64,000 nucleotides of DNA from Octopus vulgaris (lineage: Eukaryota): assembly GCA_951406725.2 (NCBI GenBank), contig OX597817.1:66588001-66652000 (forward strand), written 5' to 3'. Position numbers and translations under genes: made by a program. Positions within the stretch are counted from its first letter, which is position 1. The number at the start of each line of letters is the position of its first letter. Positions 16,597-59,628 of the stretch are shown here, one piece after another. The notes under the pieces are model-generated. The model searched no databases, was not told the origin of the DNA, and saw only the letters and a program-made list of their open reading frames with translations.

Positions 16597-16804
16597 GAAA
16601 ACAATTGCAGCGTGGAAGGTGTTTATAAGCCATTTAAGAAACACACAAAAACCGTTAGATTCACTTCAACATTTAAATTTAATTTGTCAAAATATTTTCG
16701 TCGCTTTGAGACCGCGACCTATTCTCTAACAAAATTCCGTGCAGCACGGTTTTTGTGTGTTTCTTAAATGGCTTATAAACACCTTCCACGCTGCAATTGT
16801 TTTC
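16597..16804. mobile_element. Fold-back element with perfect 59-bp inverted arms (Penelope-type terminal repeat candidate)
   Basis: 16597-16655 is the exact reverse complement of 16746-16804. The spacer holds a hammerhead-like motif. Confidence 0.75.
16683..16733 (-). ncRNA. Minimal type-I hammerhead-like motif, variant or decayed core
   Basis: UUUGUUA-GAGAAUA-g-GUCGC..GCGAC-GAAA-AUAU-UU-UGACAAA: 7-bp helix I, 5-bp helix II, palindromic helix III. Confidence 0.5.
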
Positions 16805-18425
16805 TTTAAAATGCATATGTTTTAATGAAATTTTCCAAAGGTATTTCAGATGGTGTAGACTACGATCGTGTGGTTAAAAAAATGGGGAAAATGGTTTTTG
16901 AGTGACATTTTTACTTCCACAAGACTTTATTAAATGCATATTTCTTAAAAGAAATTCAAGAGGTACGTTTGCAGTGATGCATATTACGATTAATCTTTTT
17001 TTTCAAATTTTAAAGCGATACTCGTAATGTATACCGCAATAATCGTTATGTACATTTCTCTAGTAAAGTTCATTAAAAAACATGCCCTTTAAAGAATATC
17101 ATGGAGAAACAAAATCAGTGGGCCACACTTCTGTAGAGATGCCAACATATGAACTTATATACATATACTGTTAATAGTAACGTAATTGTTCCCCTTGGAT
17201 CGCTATACGAAGTTTTAGTTTTCATTTAGTAGTTAATGCTCATACTCTGGCAACGTACACACACTTTTTACTGTCCATTTGTGTCTTTCTGTGTTTTTTT
17301 CTATGTACTCTTCATACACTTTTTGGCTTTCATTCATGTCTTTTTCTATATTCTCTTCCCTCTTTTACCCCTCTCCAACAAAATATACACACGCATTTAC
17401 ACACACACACAAACACACGCACACACACACACACGCACGCACACACATACACACAATGTGATAACCTTTGCTGTGTAAAATATATATATATAAAATATGT
17501 GTAAAATATGTTGATGCCAAATTCAGATAATTAGACACGATTATCTCCCTTCAATTAGAAAATTTCCATATGTCAAATAGGTACAGTTTACATGGATATT
17601 CTTTTTAGCTTAAACTCATAAACACACACATATATCCCTTTTTCTGTTTCTTTAATACACACTTCCTCTTTCTCAAACTTTCCCATTACATAAATTCATA
17701 TGCACATTTACGCTGTCTTTCGATTACAGTTCACCCATCTCTCACAGTGATATATTTTCTTAATATTAACACACACTACACACACATGTACATACATAGA
17801 AATAGCTTCATGAAATCATTCTCTACTATTAAAGAAAAGAGAGATAGTGAGACATTGGTCGAGGTAGTTCCTGACATACAAAGACAGGATGGTTACGTTT
17901 TGAATGCTTTGATCATCGGTATAATCGATAAGAGCTGACCTAGTTGGTATCTGTATGCGTAATCAATATTTTGAAAGAGTATTGGATAAATTTATTAAGT
18001 TTCTGTTTGCGAATGTTTGTTTTAGAATAAAAACAGAATTCTACGGGTTTGGTGACATAAACTATTATAATTGATACCTCATCGCGCTAAGTAAACTCTA
18101 CGCCTACGTATCTAATGTTTCCTTTATAGCTATTTTTAATAGATAGCAAGGCTTGGTTTGTGAGAAATTTTGTTGAAACGATCGCGTAGTTTTCCTTGTT
18201 GGCTCTAAGTGTTTCCTGTAAGTTTATCTGGATGGGAATAAGTTCGCAGATACCCATTACTAAAAAACTTCTGAAGTTTATCCATGATAAATAATGTTCT
18301 ATAATATATTTTATATCTAAATAGTTCTATTTGCCGACATAGCTGCTAGTGATTGCATACCAACTGACGTTTTAGGCAAGTTCGGACATAGAGTTATCTA
18401 CCTTGTGTTTATTAACTGTCCAAAG

Positions 18426-18749
18426 CAGAGCTACTCAACCATTTTTTAAAAATCTATGGACCCCTTTCATTACTATTCTATTCTGGTGGACTCCCATAGC
18501 CTTCGATGTTTAATAACTAGTTTTATAGAAACTTCTTTCAAAATTCCTATTTTGCTTTACACACATTAACTTGTGTCGGTCGAACATTAGAGAAAGAAAC
18601 CGAGCTGATTCTTGCAATACATACCAATACATACATCTAAAGTAATTTTTTTTTCAATGGGTCTTAAAATACTATTGTGGATCTCCAATATACTATTTTG
18701 TTGTGTGGACCTCCCCAAAACTTATATGGACCCCGGTTGAGAACCACTG
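18426..18749. mobile_element. hAT (Charlie-like) MITE
   Basis: TIRs cagagctactcaacc / ggttgagaaccactg. Degenerate 8-bp TSD gtccaaag / gtctgaag. Confidence 0.7.
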
Positions 18750-19039
18750 GTCTGAAGAGCCACCGCGTTATTGTGACACAATATTTTCGATTATAGAGGT
18801 GTGGGGCATAAACGTGGTAGAGGTATAAATATGACAATTGCTAATTTCCCTTTATCCCGAAATTTTAAAATTCCTATGTGCAAACAATATTAATATCCAA
18901 TGGATTTACCATTGTTGATCAGTTTTGAAAAGATAACAGTTTAATAATCATCTCAGCTTAATACGTTTTTTAGTTTGTTTTTTTTTTCACTTGTTGAGTT
19001 TGGAGGGAGGAACATTGTCTATGACTTTTGCAGGCCCGT

Positions 19040-19300
19040 TGAGTCAGGTGAGCTTCATACCGTTGATGTTCTGTTTAAACTGTTGTTGAAGGTCAGTATT
19101 TGCTGGAAACACATAAGTAGGGAAAGACTCTAGTGAGCCAATGTTCTGGGGAGATAGTAGTGCTACGTAAGTGTTAGAGTAGTGTTGATTATCACTCACG
19201 TTGGGATTACTTTCTGACGCCGATTCAATTCCAAGAAGACAAATTGGGAAAAGTTTAAACAGTTCTGGAGCAATACCACCCACAGATGAACATAAGGCGG
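19040..19300 (-). mobile_element. Decayed CR1/L2-like LINE 3' coding fragment
   Basis: 'APELFKLFP...VFPANTDLQQQFKQNIN' resembles CR1-type C-termini. Confidence 0.4.
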
Positions 19301-19755
19301 AAAACTAACAAAAATTTGCTCTGTGGGTTTGCCAAGAAGGGAAACGCAATATATCCGGGGGCTAAATATCCAAAACGAATCCTGGACTCTTAAACTGTGA
19401 ATGACATGAAAAAATGCATATGAAATTGATTTTTTTCCCCAGATAATATTATTAATGCTGGTAAATCTTTCAGTTCAGCTGTAACAAGCTTGGAAAACTC
19501 TAATAGAAACCTTAGTATGAGCAGAAACAGAAATCCTGACGCCTGTTCAAAAGCAAGGATGATGCTACAGATGAAACACCGGGGGAAACATTACTGCAAA
19601 CCAGATTGTCACAATAATGAGTGAAGAACCGAATAACAAAAAAGTCTAAGTCGAATTGTCTTTTTAGATGTTTTACATAAAACACAAAATAGGTATCAAA
19701 AATATAAAAAAAAGTAAGAGAGAAGCAACAAGTTTTCGCAATATCTTCACGAAGA

Positions 19756-57737: not shown

Positions 57738-57798
57738 ACACACACACACACACACACACACACACACACACACACACACATTTACATGAAGTTAAATG

Positions 57799-58655
57799 CA
57801 TGTCCGGTTACTGAGTGACCAATGGTTTCGCATCTATAATGCGCTTAGCTTTATACCTGTACATGACTCGTCAGACTCCAGTGAGTGCGGGCATACAGTT
57901 TCTCTTCAAACTGGAAGTAGAAAACCGTTACGGTCAGTTAATTTGTAAACAAGAGAATAATATACATTGTCTGACCCGTAAACAGAACTGGTTGTCGCTC
58001 TTAGACCGGTCCGGTCAGCAAATCTTATGGACCTAAAAGGCAAACGAGAAATTTCCGCGCTATGGTTGGTTCCGTCGGCAAATACTTTTTACTGCCCTAA
58101 TCGACGAACGGGGCTGGTAACGTTTGAAGCGGGGGCATGGGCTACAGGTCCCGTATCTTGAGTTTAAGAGAGATCCCAGATCCAGTGAGTCTTTGAGGAT
58201 ACTTGCCTGCTCTGCTATGCAAAACTTGCATTATCCTCTCGCTTATATCGGACTACGACTGCTCTATATAAACGGGAGCGGACAATGCAAGCTTTGGACT
58301 CGGACTCTCTCTTAAACTCAAGACATGGGTTATGTAGCCCCTGCTCCCGTTTCAAACGCTATCTACTGCAGGCATGGATTCCCCGTTCGTCGATTAGGAC
58401 TGTAAAATGCACTTAACGACCGGAACCAACCACAAGGCAGAGATTCCTTGTTTGCTCTTTAGGTCCATAAGATTTGCTGAGGGAGATAACCAGTCCTGTT
58501 AAAGGCTAAGACAGTTTATATTATTCTTTTGTTTACAAATTAACTGACCGTAACCGTTTTCCATCTTCAATGCGGCCATCGGAGTCTAACAATTCGTGTG
58601 TAAAGCTAAGCGTTTTATGGATGCGAAACCATTGGTCACTCAATGACCGGACATG
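57799..58655. mobile_element. ~860-bp fold-back/MITE with ~370-bp imperfect arms
   Basis: catgtccggttactgagtgaccaatggtttcgcatc / gatgcgaaaccattggtcactcaatgaccggacatg, with inner arm ends tcttgagtttaagagag / ctctcttaaactcaaga. Confidence 0.85.
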
Positions 58656-58952
58656 TAGTAGTAAAGTATTTAGATGAAGTTAAATTAACTTCATCTAAAT
58701 ACATTACTGATGTAACCTTTTAGAATGTGCTTTTTTCTGGGATATATGACCCACCAACGATATGTATGTATGTATGCATATATATATATATATATATATA
58801 TATATATTTTTTTTAAAGGGTTGACTGTGGATTCGTCCATTAATTGGAAGTAGTTTCCAAAAGATTTCTAACGTTGATTCTTCATACTTACTTTGAATTT
58901 ATTAATGTATATTGGCGTAGATATGAAAGGTTACAAAAGTGTATTAAGTTTA

Positions 58953-59281
58953 TGATTTAAGATATAGAACAAAGTTCGACAAATTCAATCATATTTTTCG
59001 TAAATGCAGGAGATTAGATGTTAATATGGAATAAAATATCTTTTATTCGTTTCGCTATGCGATCGTTTCGTACAGAAAGACAATAAATTCATTTTAAGAA
59101 CCTGAGTTATAAAAAAGTACTCATCAGTAGCACAATAAGAAAGAAATATTAAAAACTAATGTATGAAACGATCGTATAGCGAATTGAATAAAAAAAATTC
59201 TATTCCATATTAACATCTAATCTCCTCCATTTACGAAAAATATGATTGAATTAACCGAACTTTGTTCTATAACTTAAATCA
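58953..59281. mobile_element. Fold-back element with ~120-bp arms (Penelope-type terminal repeat candidate)
   Basis: tcaatcatatttttcgtaaatgcaggagattagatgttaatatggaata and its reverse complement. Contains a hammerhead motif. Confidence 0.75.
59053..59132 (-). ncRNA. Type-I hammerhead ribozyme motif (U16.1>C in this copy)
   Basis: UGCUA-CUGAUGA-GUAC...GUAC-GAAA-C-GAUC-G-CA-UAGCG. The opposite arm keeps GAAACGAUCGUAUAGCG. Confidence 0.68.
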
Positions 59282-59350
59282 AGTACTTACTATGTATGAA
59301 TTCTGTCTGTCTGCCTGCCTGCTTGTATATATATATATATATATATATAT

Positions 59351-59628
59351 ATAAGAACATCAGATGACAAACGAATAAACGATTATCTAATGAGCTTCAT
59401 TAGCTTACAGCTGTTTCTGCTATAATATGCTGTGAACTCAATGTTGAGTGTCATAGCTTCATCGGAACTTCGAATATGAAGTGCACTTCATATTCGAGGC
59501 TCCAATGAAGGTATAAGGTGCTACTCAGGCACTTAACTATGAGTCCAATACATCTTATTGCAGAAACAACTATAAGCTAATGAAGTTCATAGAATAATCT
59601 TTTTGCCTTTGTCATCTAATTTTCTTAT
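59351..59628. mobile_element. Near-complete palindrome centred on gtgcac (Penelope-type terminal repeat candidate)
   Basis: tcgaatatgaagtgcacttcatattcga core, with arms extending about 135 bp. Confidence 0.75.
59402..59469 (-). ncRNA. Hammerhead variant (CCGAUGA core)
   Basis: AGUU-CCGAUGA-A-GCUAUGA..UAUAGC-A-GAAA-C-AGCU-G-UA-AGCU. A decayed mirror copy lies at 59498-59578 (+). Confidence 0.55.

What the first reader, a model, noticed from the sequence alone, without database searches (positions are those of the whole stretch)
16597..59628. Five dissimilar fold-back elements each carry a minimal hammerhead ribozyme motif
Seen: the palindromic elements at 16597-16804, 31643-31981, ~56275-56393, 58953-59281 and 59351-59628 share no obvious primary sequence. 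All contain the same RNA architecture: helix I, a CUGANGA-like core, helix II, GAAA, a 1-2 bp helix III closed by a usually palindromic loop (AUAU, GAUU, UGA, GAUC, AGCU), UH, then helix I. Established: Penelope-like element terminal repeats are often inverted and carry minimal type-I hammerheads thought to cleave as dimers. A Penelope GIY-YIG remnant lies at 24765-25600. Inference: several distinct ORF-less ribozyme retroelement families are dense in this genome and may be unannotated.
Basis: partly seen in the sequence, partly recalled or inferred. Interest (0 to 1): 0.75.

Follow-up and report, generated by a model that had tools for sequence, protein, structure and literature searches.

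The report
Penelope retroelement stubs with hammerhead ribozymes
The five hairpins are decayed copies of five different common repeats, each carrying a damaged, predicted self-cutting RNA motif, and were likely pasted in by Penelope-type jumping genes, a known kind of genomic debris; one family looks like a probably protein-less 207-base passenger with an unusual swapped ribozyme core.

Summary
The observation mostly holds. Each fold-back is one copy of its own dispersed repeat family. The family majority sequences carry a type I hammerhead with a palindromic helix III, as in published Hydra-clade Penelope-like elements (PLEs). The window copies are damaged: one arm of one element passes a relaxed descriptor, and the motif read for E3 is an artefact of a deletion.

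All five families show PLE insertion marks: head-to-head inversion, a one-sided tail, and TA-rich targets. 'ORF-less' does not hold for all of them. E3 is joined to a PLE ORF, E2 is homologous to the end of an ORF-bearing PLE, and E4 abuts PLE reverse-transcriptase fragments. E5 is unresolved. The nearby GIY-YIG remnant belongs to a sixth family.

E1 is the exception: 508 exact-pattern matches, a fixed 5' base, and no continuation in 90 of 90 copies, against 12 of 30 in an autonomous control. It also has a natural G3-C8 core swap and is likely a non-autonomous PLE passenger. This scan has noted similar stubs and a G3-C8 core elsewhere in this genome. Cleavage is untested.

The parts
16530..16542 (.). 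E1 left target-site duplication (13 bp; right copy at 16800-16812)
   Evidence: sequence
16543..16600 (-). E1 one-sided tail (element positions ~151-207)
   Evidence: shared by family copies
16601..16749 (-). E1 long (sense) arm, 96% identical to the family majority
16683..16734 (-). E1 type I hammerhead motif: 7-bp helix I, G3/C8-swapped core in the family (this copy U4A, C8U), 5-bp helix II, AAUAUU helix III, U17
16737..16749 (.). E1 fold-back apex hairpin; ACGG shared with the short arm (microhomology junction, inferred)
   Evidence: sequence
16746..16799 (+). E1 short inverted arm (copy of the element's 3' ~55 nt, no tail)
24090..25600 (-). PLE linker/GIY-YIG remnant and its 3' region; a sixth family, unrelated to E1-E5; left boundary approximate
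31499..31638 (-). E2 tail (~140 nt), ends in (TA)n
31693..31796 (-). E2 hammerhead motif: helix I AUCAC/GUGAU, CUGAUGA, 74-nt helix II domain with a weak base, ACAAUUGU helix III (one change in this copy)
   Evidence: homologous to ORF-linked L270/L275
31879..31981 (+). E2 short inverted arm (inner boundary approximate)
56276..56339 (-). E3 hammerhead motif: 2-bp proximal helix I plus distal helix, CUGACGA (U4/C4 mixed in family), bulged helix II, ACUU-U-AAGU helix III
56350..56407 (+).
58808..58945 (-). E4 tail (~140 nt), ends in a T/TA run
59054..59131 (-). E4 hammerhead motif: CUGAUGA, GUAC/GUAC helix II with a 43-nt insert, ACGAUCGU helix III (U16.1C in this copy)
59160..59292 (+). E4 inverted arm holding only the 3' half of the motif (59165-59180)
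59402..59468 (-). E5 inverted-arm hammerhead motif, CCGAUGA (U4C) core, 13-nt deletion; the only window copy that passes the relaxed descriptor
59479..59488 (.). E5 palindrome apex at TGCA
59498..59578 (+). E5 sense-arm hammerhead motif with G5A lesion and broken palindrome
59629..59760 (+). E5 tail with a local ~42-nt duplication, ends in (TA)n

Best explanation
The five hairpins are decayed insertions of five unrelated repeat families that carry a predicted dimer-type hammerhead, and they were likely made by Hydra-clade Penelope-like reverse transcriptase/endonucleases that copied the RNA's terminal repeat and then folded the new DNA back on itself.

Shown here: multi-copy families; two 3' end sites with the tail on one arm only; head-to-head inversion; TA-rich targets and target-site duplications; an ORF link for E3, a homologous ORF-bearing element for E2, and abutting RT fragments for E4.

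Inferred from the published PLE mechanism: the enzyme nicks AT-rich DNA and starts reverse transcription at one of two internal RNA sites. It copies back through the uncleaved hammerhead and stops early (E2-E5) or at the RNA's 5' end (E1). The cDNA end then snaps back at a short palindrome or microhomology and primes the mirror arm.

The ribozyme would act only in the parent RNA, as a dimer or with protein help. The window copies are predicted to be inert. E1 is likely a non-autonomous 207-nt passenger; E2-E4 are likely the 3' ends of coding PLEs.
For: Families: first-look candidates E1 518, E2 846, E3 96, E4 379, E5 1453, with 40 scored each.

Motif anatomy matches the Hydra-clade table in Craig 2021 File S2, including E3's helix III in 6 of 26 rows, U17 in 9 of 26, and extra bases flanking helix II. 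The ORF at L268 has the Hydra diagnostics RWK, DKT, CxCX5C, CxxC and CxH.

E3: an ORF C-terminus lies 264-356 nt upstream in L105 (E 8e-8) and an ORF runs on downstream in L222/L404. E2: 74% over 57 nt and 85% over 27 nt to the 3' end of ORF-bearing L270, where the motif lies ~600 nt after the stop. E4: related RT fragments (61-72% alike) lie on the opposite strand at or near the 5' end in L225, L228, L147 and L009, and one is joined in sense to an E4 3' end.

Tail: in 56 E1 fold-backs it is on one arm in 50, on neither in 6, on both in 0. For E2, E3, E4 and E5 it is on one arm in 3/3, 5/8, 5/5 and 9/18 loci, and on both arms in 1 E5 locus. Non-simple target-site duplications in 23 of 90 E1 copies.

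Literature: inverted 5'-truncated copies, tails, solo pLTRs and self-priming (PMC3846280, PMC8557442); internal initiation on uncleaved RNA (PMC11167929).
Against: No complete autonomous parent was recovered for any of the five. E5 has no ORF link. E4 runs at least 2 kb upstream without an ORF, and I found no E4 3' UTR behind the endonuclease in L403. No anchored E2 copy has an ORF upstream except the homologues L270/L275; the PLE fragments beside E2 in L231 may be an older element. The ORF at L268 has no Pfam or PDB hit, so its assignment rests on motifs. The descriptor was tuned after seeing the data, E3 fails it (0 of 36 copies), and compensatory changes within families are few. Helix I is predicted to form only in E1.
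Confidence: 0.85

Rival explanations
1. All five are ORF-less retrozyme families that spread through hammerhead-cut circular RNAs.
For: E1 shows no continuation in 90 of 90 copies. E4 has at least 2 kb of non-coding upstream sequence. E5 has no ORF link. Retrozymes derive from PLE pLTRs (bioRxiv 10.64898/2026.07.22.740005).
Against: E3 is joined to an ORF, and E2 and E4 are linked to ORFs. No unit-length tandem array was seen in the fetched loci: the E1 pair 1056 bp apart is a duplication with flanks, and L349 has only local 64-nt repeats. E1 copies start ~62 nt upstream of the predicted cut site, not at it, and do not run round a circle.
Confidence: 0.08
2. E1 too is only the 5' pLTR of a rare autonomous PLE: reverse transcription starting at the 5' tail site runs to the transcription start and gives solo copies with a fixed 5' end. 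This is a variant of the best explanation, scored for E1 only.
For: In the autonomous family the tail is the stretch between pLTR and ORF (L277) and is about as long as E1's. Only 90 of 508 pattern matches were examined.
Against: An autonomous control family has scattered 5' ends and reaches the ORF in 12 of 30 copies, against 0 of 90 for E1 (Fisher p 8e-9). The two patterns were anchored at different places: the E1 pattern sits at the 5' end and misses shorter copies, but would not miss longer ones.
Confidence: 0.35
3. The hairpins are MITE-like DNA elements or AT-rich palindromes and the hammerhead words are chance.
For: The window copies fail a strict descriptor, Rfam does not report them, and the relaxed descriptor was tuned after the fact.
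Against: Arms are unequal and vary between copies, many copies have one arm, tails are one-sided, and TSD length varies. Four majority lines pass where at most 4 of 4000 shuffles do. The same motif follows PLE ORFs in 10 of 11 ORF loci scanned.
Confidence: 0.03
4. These particular copies are domesticated, functional ribozymes or hairpin RNAs of a host transcript.
For: Five lie in 64 kb, whereas only 7 cross-family hits occurred in ~1.1-1.3 Mb of other loci. E1's helices are predicted to form even in the fold-back.
Against: Every window copy carries core or helix lesions, and identity to the family majority (82-96%) is in the range of other copies. Conservation of these loci in other species was not tested.
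Confidence: 0.04

Closest known systems
Hydra-clade Penelope-like elements and their hammerheads (Craig et al. 2021, PMC8557442; passages, section 11, Files S1/S2 read)
   Same: (TA)n targets; sense-strand type I hammerhead near the 3' end; palindromic or near-palindromic helix III (E3's is identical to 6 of 26 listed rows); U17 common; extra bases beside helix II; inverted 5'-truncated copy and tail; local ORFs carry the clade's motifs; an octopus member, Hydra-1_Obim, is listed.
   Different: All 26 Hydra rows have a C3-U4 core and a loop II of 3-10 nt. Here E1 has G3/C8, E5 (and part of E3) has C4, and E2, E4 and E5 have 51-74-nt helix II domains. By eye, none of the five matches the listed Hydra-1_oBim motif. 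Tails reach ~140 nt, against the 30-40 bp described.
[quoted passage not shown]
   Same: Many heterogeneous families per genome, mostly single truncated copies; pairs 100-700 bp apart on opposite strands; extra base after A9; palindromic 15.2-16.2; the D. virilis variant with 2-bp helix I and bulged helix II resembles E3.
   Different: The core covariation reported there is U3-A8, not G3-C8. Helix II there is 6-8 bp without long inserts.
Adineta vaga Penelope inverted and solo pLTRs (Arkhipova et al. 2013, PMC3846280; passages read)
   Same: Head-to-head inversion with a palindrome at the junction read as self-priming; optional tail; solo pLTRs; pLTRs sufficient for mobilisation in trans.
   Different: Solo pLTRs there were few and ascribed to recombination or deletion. 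E1 has at least 508 matches, a fixed start, two end sites and TSDs.
Non-LTR retrozymes (PMC7229834, passages; bioRxiv 10.64898/2026.07.22.740005, part 1 of 5 and passages) and non-autonomous Chlamys elements such as MRC1 (PMC8557442, passage)
   Same: Short, non-coding, PLE-related and, for retrozymes, hammerhead-bearing; thought to borrow PLE enzymes.
   Different: Those are head-to-tail tandem units (retrozymes with circular RNAs). E1 occurs as monomers and fold-backs that start at one base upstream of an uncut ribozyme.
PAc (Poseidon of Anolis; Frangieh et al. 2024, PMC11167929; parts 1-2 of 4 read)
   Same: Two internal initiation sites define the tail; AT-rich targets; uncleaved RNA is the template; the engineered C3G/G8C double mutant keeps part of the activity.
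   Different: Different clade; the hammerhead there overlaps the ORF start; nothing here was tested in vitro.

Membership tests
PLE-type insertion (pLTR-derived) | Head-to-head inverted 5'-truncated copy | tested here: met
   All five window copies; 56 of 90 E1 copies
PLE-type insertion (pLTR-derived) | Optional tail on one end; two 3' end sites | tested here: met
   E1 50 of 56 one arm, 0 both; E2 3/3, E3 5/8, E4 5/5, E5 9/18 with 1 both
PLE-type insertion (pLTR-derived) | Variable-length TSD, AT-rich or (TA)n target | tested here: met
   E1 only: 23 of 90 non-simple TSDs of 8-14 bp, 50 of 90 beside (TA)4; other families seen by eye
Autonomous Hydra-clade PLE | Element continuous with an RT + C-terminal GIY-YIG ORF | tested here: inconclusive
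   Met for E3; indirect for E2 and E4; not found for E5; not met for E1 (0 of 90)
Autonomous Hydra-clade PLE | RWK, DKT, CxCX5C, CxxC, CxH motifs; no CCHH | tested here: met
   In the L268 ORF; CxCX5C also in L270, L275 and L403. No tree was built, and L268 is not the parent of any of the five
Type I hammerhead (PLE dimer type) | Core plus helices I and II in type I order | tested here: met
   Majority lines of E1, E2, E4 and E5 pass a post-hoc descriptor; E3 by manual fit only
Type I hammerhead (PLE dimer type) | Palindromic helix III able to pair between two copies | tested here: met
   Predicted duplex -0.2 (E1), -6.4, -3.6, -10.0 and -11.1 kcal/mol; E1's is very weak
Type I hammerhead (PLE dimer type) | Consensus core C3 U4 G5 A6 N7 G8 A9 | tested here: inconclusive
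   Met in E2 and E4; E1 G3/C8 in 97 of 124; E5 C4 (CG 23, CA 12, TG 25 of 64, a CpG-decay pattern); E3 mixed
Type I hammerhead (PLE dimer type) | Helix covariation | tested here: inconclusive
   Few double changes within families, e.g. E3 7 of 7 and E4 5 of 6 paired at one position each; helices differ between families while pairing is kept
Type I hammerhead (PLE dimer type) | Self-cleavage after H17 | not testable with these tools
   Needs an in vitro assay
Non-LTR retrozyme | Head-to-tail tandem units with a hammerhead in each | tested here: not met
   No unit-length tandem in the E1 loci examined; no dedicated tandem search for E2-E5
Non-LTR retrozyme | Circular monomeric RNA | not testable with these tools
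   Only contigs of runs not on record as RNA were available
MITE | Fixed equal TIRs and fixed TSD length | tested here: not met
   Unequal, variable arms; 34 of 90 E1 copies single-armed; TSD 8-14 bp

The most novel reading that the evidence does not exclude
E1 is a self-propagating, SINE-like passenger of Penelope-like elements: a 207-nt linear RNA with its own start site and enzyme-binding tail, copied uncut in trans, whose hammerhead has kept a natural G3-C8 swap and still cleaves as a dimer or with protein help. Together with the U4C and long-helix-II families, this would show that PLE hammerheads tolerate core variants that standard descriptors miss, so their numbers are much under-counted in this lineage. 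E1 would be a minimal natural cargo for defining the cis signals of PLE insertion.
Probability: 0.4. Interest if true: 0.6.

Novelty: new variant of a known kind. Interest (0 to 1): 0.4.

Why it matters
Mostly annotation value: these palindromes are ordinary PLE insertion products, and the window copies are unlikely to do anything. Two points go further. First, E1 gives hundreds of young natural insertions with a fixed start and two end sites, which fit the in vitro model of internal initiation on uncleaved RNA and define a ~200-nt candidate cis-element for mobilisation in trans. Second, natural G3-C8, U4C and long-helix-II hammerheads persist in whole families, one U4C form in a young ORF-bearing family with 3294 exact matches. 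That makes it testable whether PLE hammerheads are selected for cleavage or only for a fold.

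Tried and rejected
Rfam scans found no hammerhead (30 weak rows not shown). The strict descriptor missed all five. Pfam and PDB gave nothing useful for the PLE ORFs; the protein atlas did not answer.

The remnant at 24765-25600 as parent: rejected. The young PLE (L268 family) as sequence parent of E1: no similarity; E1 in L271 sits in that element's terminal (TA)n and looks like a separate insertion. 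A fixed 5' end for E5: suggested, rejected. A 1056-bp tandem unit for E1: rejected as a local duplication. Flanks shared between E1 loci: microsatellites or ends of other repeats.

Whole-length E1 folds no better than shuffles (z -0.31), so there is no rod-like circle signal. Core conservation is biased by my anchor on GAAA; only one search is used. A re-wired (non-circularly permuted) hammerhead, a lead from earlier notes: not needed, since the ordinary order fits; no dedicated search was made.

Sequencing runs: no RNA holder listed. Contigs laid on E1 gave no head-to-tail joint and no common continuation past the tail among the rows shown; this is no evidence either way.

Lunse et al. 2017 (PMC5785218) is not held; I saw only its title, and it may already report these core variants. 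Searches for a natural G3-C8 core gave only engineered mutants in the passages I read. Searches for octopus PLE hammerheads or PLE-driven SINEs gave nothing closer than the papers cited. Repbase and Dfam could not be checked.

Full report
Setting. The window lies at G000:C4:66588001-66652000 in a 2.8-Gb genome, probably an octopus (from an earlier scan note; not tested). I call the elements E1 (16597-16804), E2 (31643-31981), E3 (56275-56393), E4 (58953-59281) and E5 (59351-59628).

1. The observation. Four fold-backs appear in a self-BLAST and none hits another; E3 is a 70% self-match. A strict hammerhead descriptor finds none of them, and Rfam reports no hammerhead. Each element is a dispersed family: first-look candidates were 518, 846, 96, 379 and 1453, with 40 scored each. 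Family majority lines restore the motif.

E1 has a 7-bp helix I, core GUGAACA, a 5-bp helix II and AAUAUU. E2 has AUCAC/GUGAU, CUGAUGA, a 74-nt helix II domain with a weak base, and ACAAUUGU. E3 has a 2-bp plus distal helix I, CUGACGA, a bulged helix II and ACUU-U-AAGU. E4 has CUGAUGA, GUAC/GUAC around a 43-nt insert, and ACGAUCGU. E5 has CCGAUGA, a 12-bp helix II and ACAGCUGU.

A relaxed descriptor, tuned after I saw these, matches four majority lines against 0, 1, 4 and 0 of 4000 shuffles; E3 fails. Individual copies pass in 55/124, 9/49, 0/36, 4/41 and 9/64 (copies were anchored on the GAAA region and kept only if they covered the core). In the window only E5's minus arm passes. Every window copy has lesions, and the motif read for E3 is a pseudo-core made by a deletion in the plus arm.

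Compensatory changes are few. Dead copies are not expected to show strong selection.

2. What they are. All families show PLE insertion marks. Arms are head to head and unequal. A 50-140-nt tail follows the 3' end and ends in TA repeats. In two-armed copies it is on one arm: E1 50 of 56, neither in 6, both in 0; E2 3/3, E3 5/8, E4 5/5, E5 9/18 with one on both. E1 has 8-14-bp non-simple TSDs in 23 of 90 copies, and the window copy has a 13-bp TSD. These features are described for PLEs (PMC3846280; PMC8557442), and opposite-strand hammerhead pairs 100-700 bp apart were noted in PMC4209133.

3. Coding or not. E2, E3 and E4 are variably 5'-truncated, and E5 also extends upstream. E3 is a pLTR of a coding element: L105 has an ORF C-terminus 264-356 nt upstream (E 8e-8) and L222/L404 has the ORF downstream in sense. 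E2 matches the 3' end of ORF-bearing L270 and L275, which carry the same helix I and III and a 10-bp helix II in L270; no E2 copy itself was linked to an ORF.

E4 extends at least 2 kb without an ORF. Related RT fragments lie at or near its 5' end on the opposite strand in four loci, and one is joined in sense to an E4 3' end; I found no E4 UTR behind the endonuclease in L403. E5 has no ORF link. The remnant at 24765-25600 is homologous to the L268 ORF, but none of E1-E5 lies in its 30 best loci.

The L268 ORF has RWK, DKT, CxCX5C, CxxC and CxH, the features given for the Hydra clade. That paper's File S2 lists 26 Hydra rows with the same anatomy; E3's helix III is in 6 of them and U17 in 9, but all have C3-U4 cores and loops II of 3-10 nt.

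4. E1. A 21-nt pattern at its 5' end has 508 exact matches (control 0). In the first 90 listed, every copy begins at the same G, preceded by target DNA or an inverted arm. The 3' ends cluster at ~150 and ~207 nt. None shares sequence beyond either end apart from microsatellites and ends of other repeats, and no PLE ORF was hit within ~1.5 kb using the L268 protein; a wider query set gave one fragment 530-720 nt upstream in L290.

An autonomous control family (3294 matches) has scattered 5' ends and reaches the ORF in 12 of 30 loci (Fisher p 8e-9). The patterns were anchored differently, and 418 matches were not examined. E1 has two subfamilies at about 95% identity and G3/C8 in 97 of 124 copies. 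I found that pair only as an engineered, partly active double mutant; the natural covariation reported is U3-A8. U4C is known from a viroid. Lunse et al. 2017 was not available.

5. Mechanism. Shown: the anatomy above. Inferred from PMC11167929: the PLE protein nicks AT-rich DNA and starts reverse transcription at one of two internal sites on uncleaved RNA. This explains the two end sites and the intact hammerheads; E1 starts ~62 nt before its cut site. The cDNA end then folds back at a short palindrome or microhomology (TGCA in E5; a hairpin apex and ACGG in E1) and primes the mirror arm, as proposed in PMC3846280. The mirror arm is antisense and cannot be a dimer partner. Helix I is predicted to form only in E1 (P 0.6-0.95) and at 0.04 or less in the others, with or without the mirror arm. 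The ribozyme's role belongs to the parent RNA and is itself unsettled in print.

6. Density. Hits to the five families in loci fetched for other families numbered 2, 2, 0, 0 and 3 in 1.1-1.3 Mb. That suggests roughly thousands of copies for E1, E2 and E5; the sample is small and biased to TA-rich DNA.

7. Verdict. A known kind of object in previously unlisted families, as far as my searches go, with real variants: G3-C8, U4C, long helix II, and a likely non-autonomous 207-nt family. Earlier notes of this scan describe similar stubs and a G3-C8 element in this genome; look-ups by sequence for E1, E2 and E5 found no match, so I cannot tell whether that is the same family. Interest 0.4.

Noticed in passing
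L268 family (e.g. G000:C1:144826500-144834000; pattern): Young Hydra-type PLE with a 717-aa open frame, copies ~97-98% alike, 3294 exact matches, tandem arrays of ~2580 bp period, and a U4C hammerhead (CCGAAGA) with U17.
   Followed up: partly
L236:2405-4560 (just left of the window): Long PLE RT-endonuclease ORF remnant, about 43% identical to the L268 protein, followed by TA/TG-rich DNA.
   Followed up: partly
L270:-strand ~4620-4740; L275:-strand ~4470-4590: ORF-bearing PLE family with a C4 core and a long helix II; the closest coding relative of E2.
   Followed up: partly
window 32536-32880: 345-bp inverted repeat with (TTAGGG)n/(CCCTAA)n telomere-type repeats in its arms; MITE-like.
   Followed up: no
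window 57799-58655: ~860-bp fold-back, arms 72% alike, more GC-rich than its surroundings; no hammerhead found by either descriptor.
   Followed up: no
window 44701-44902, 8841-9014, 43121-43931, 35796-37289: Further inverted repeats; 43121-43931 appears to enclose a SINE-like repeat.
   Followed up: no
window 57572-57616 (+): Weak hammerhead-like match with two core mismatches; within the chance rate.
   Followed up: partly
window ~31835-31870 (-), E2 family: A second small hairpin followed by GAAA upstream of the E2 hammerhead, conserved in the family; no valid core found.
   Followed up: no
L271, L046, L009: These elements nest in each other's terminal (TA)n: E1 beside the young PLE, an E5 tail beside E1, and E1 beside E4. 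E4 and E5 are likewise neighbours in the window.
   Followed up: partly
L288:1501-1707 (E1): The first six bases of E1 are complementary to six bases near the end of its tail, which could close the RNA or cDNA into a panhandle; overall folding is not better than shuffles.
   Followed up: partly
L349: Three local 64-nt tandem duplications of the E1 5' part precede a full copy.
   Followed up: partly
E1-like sequence is held by runs labelled as six different organisms (A-F).
   Followed up: no
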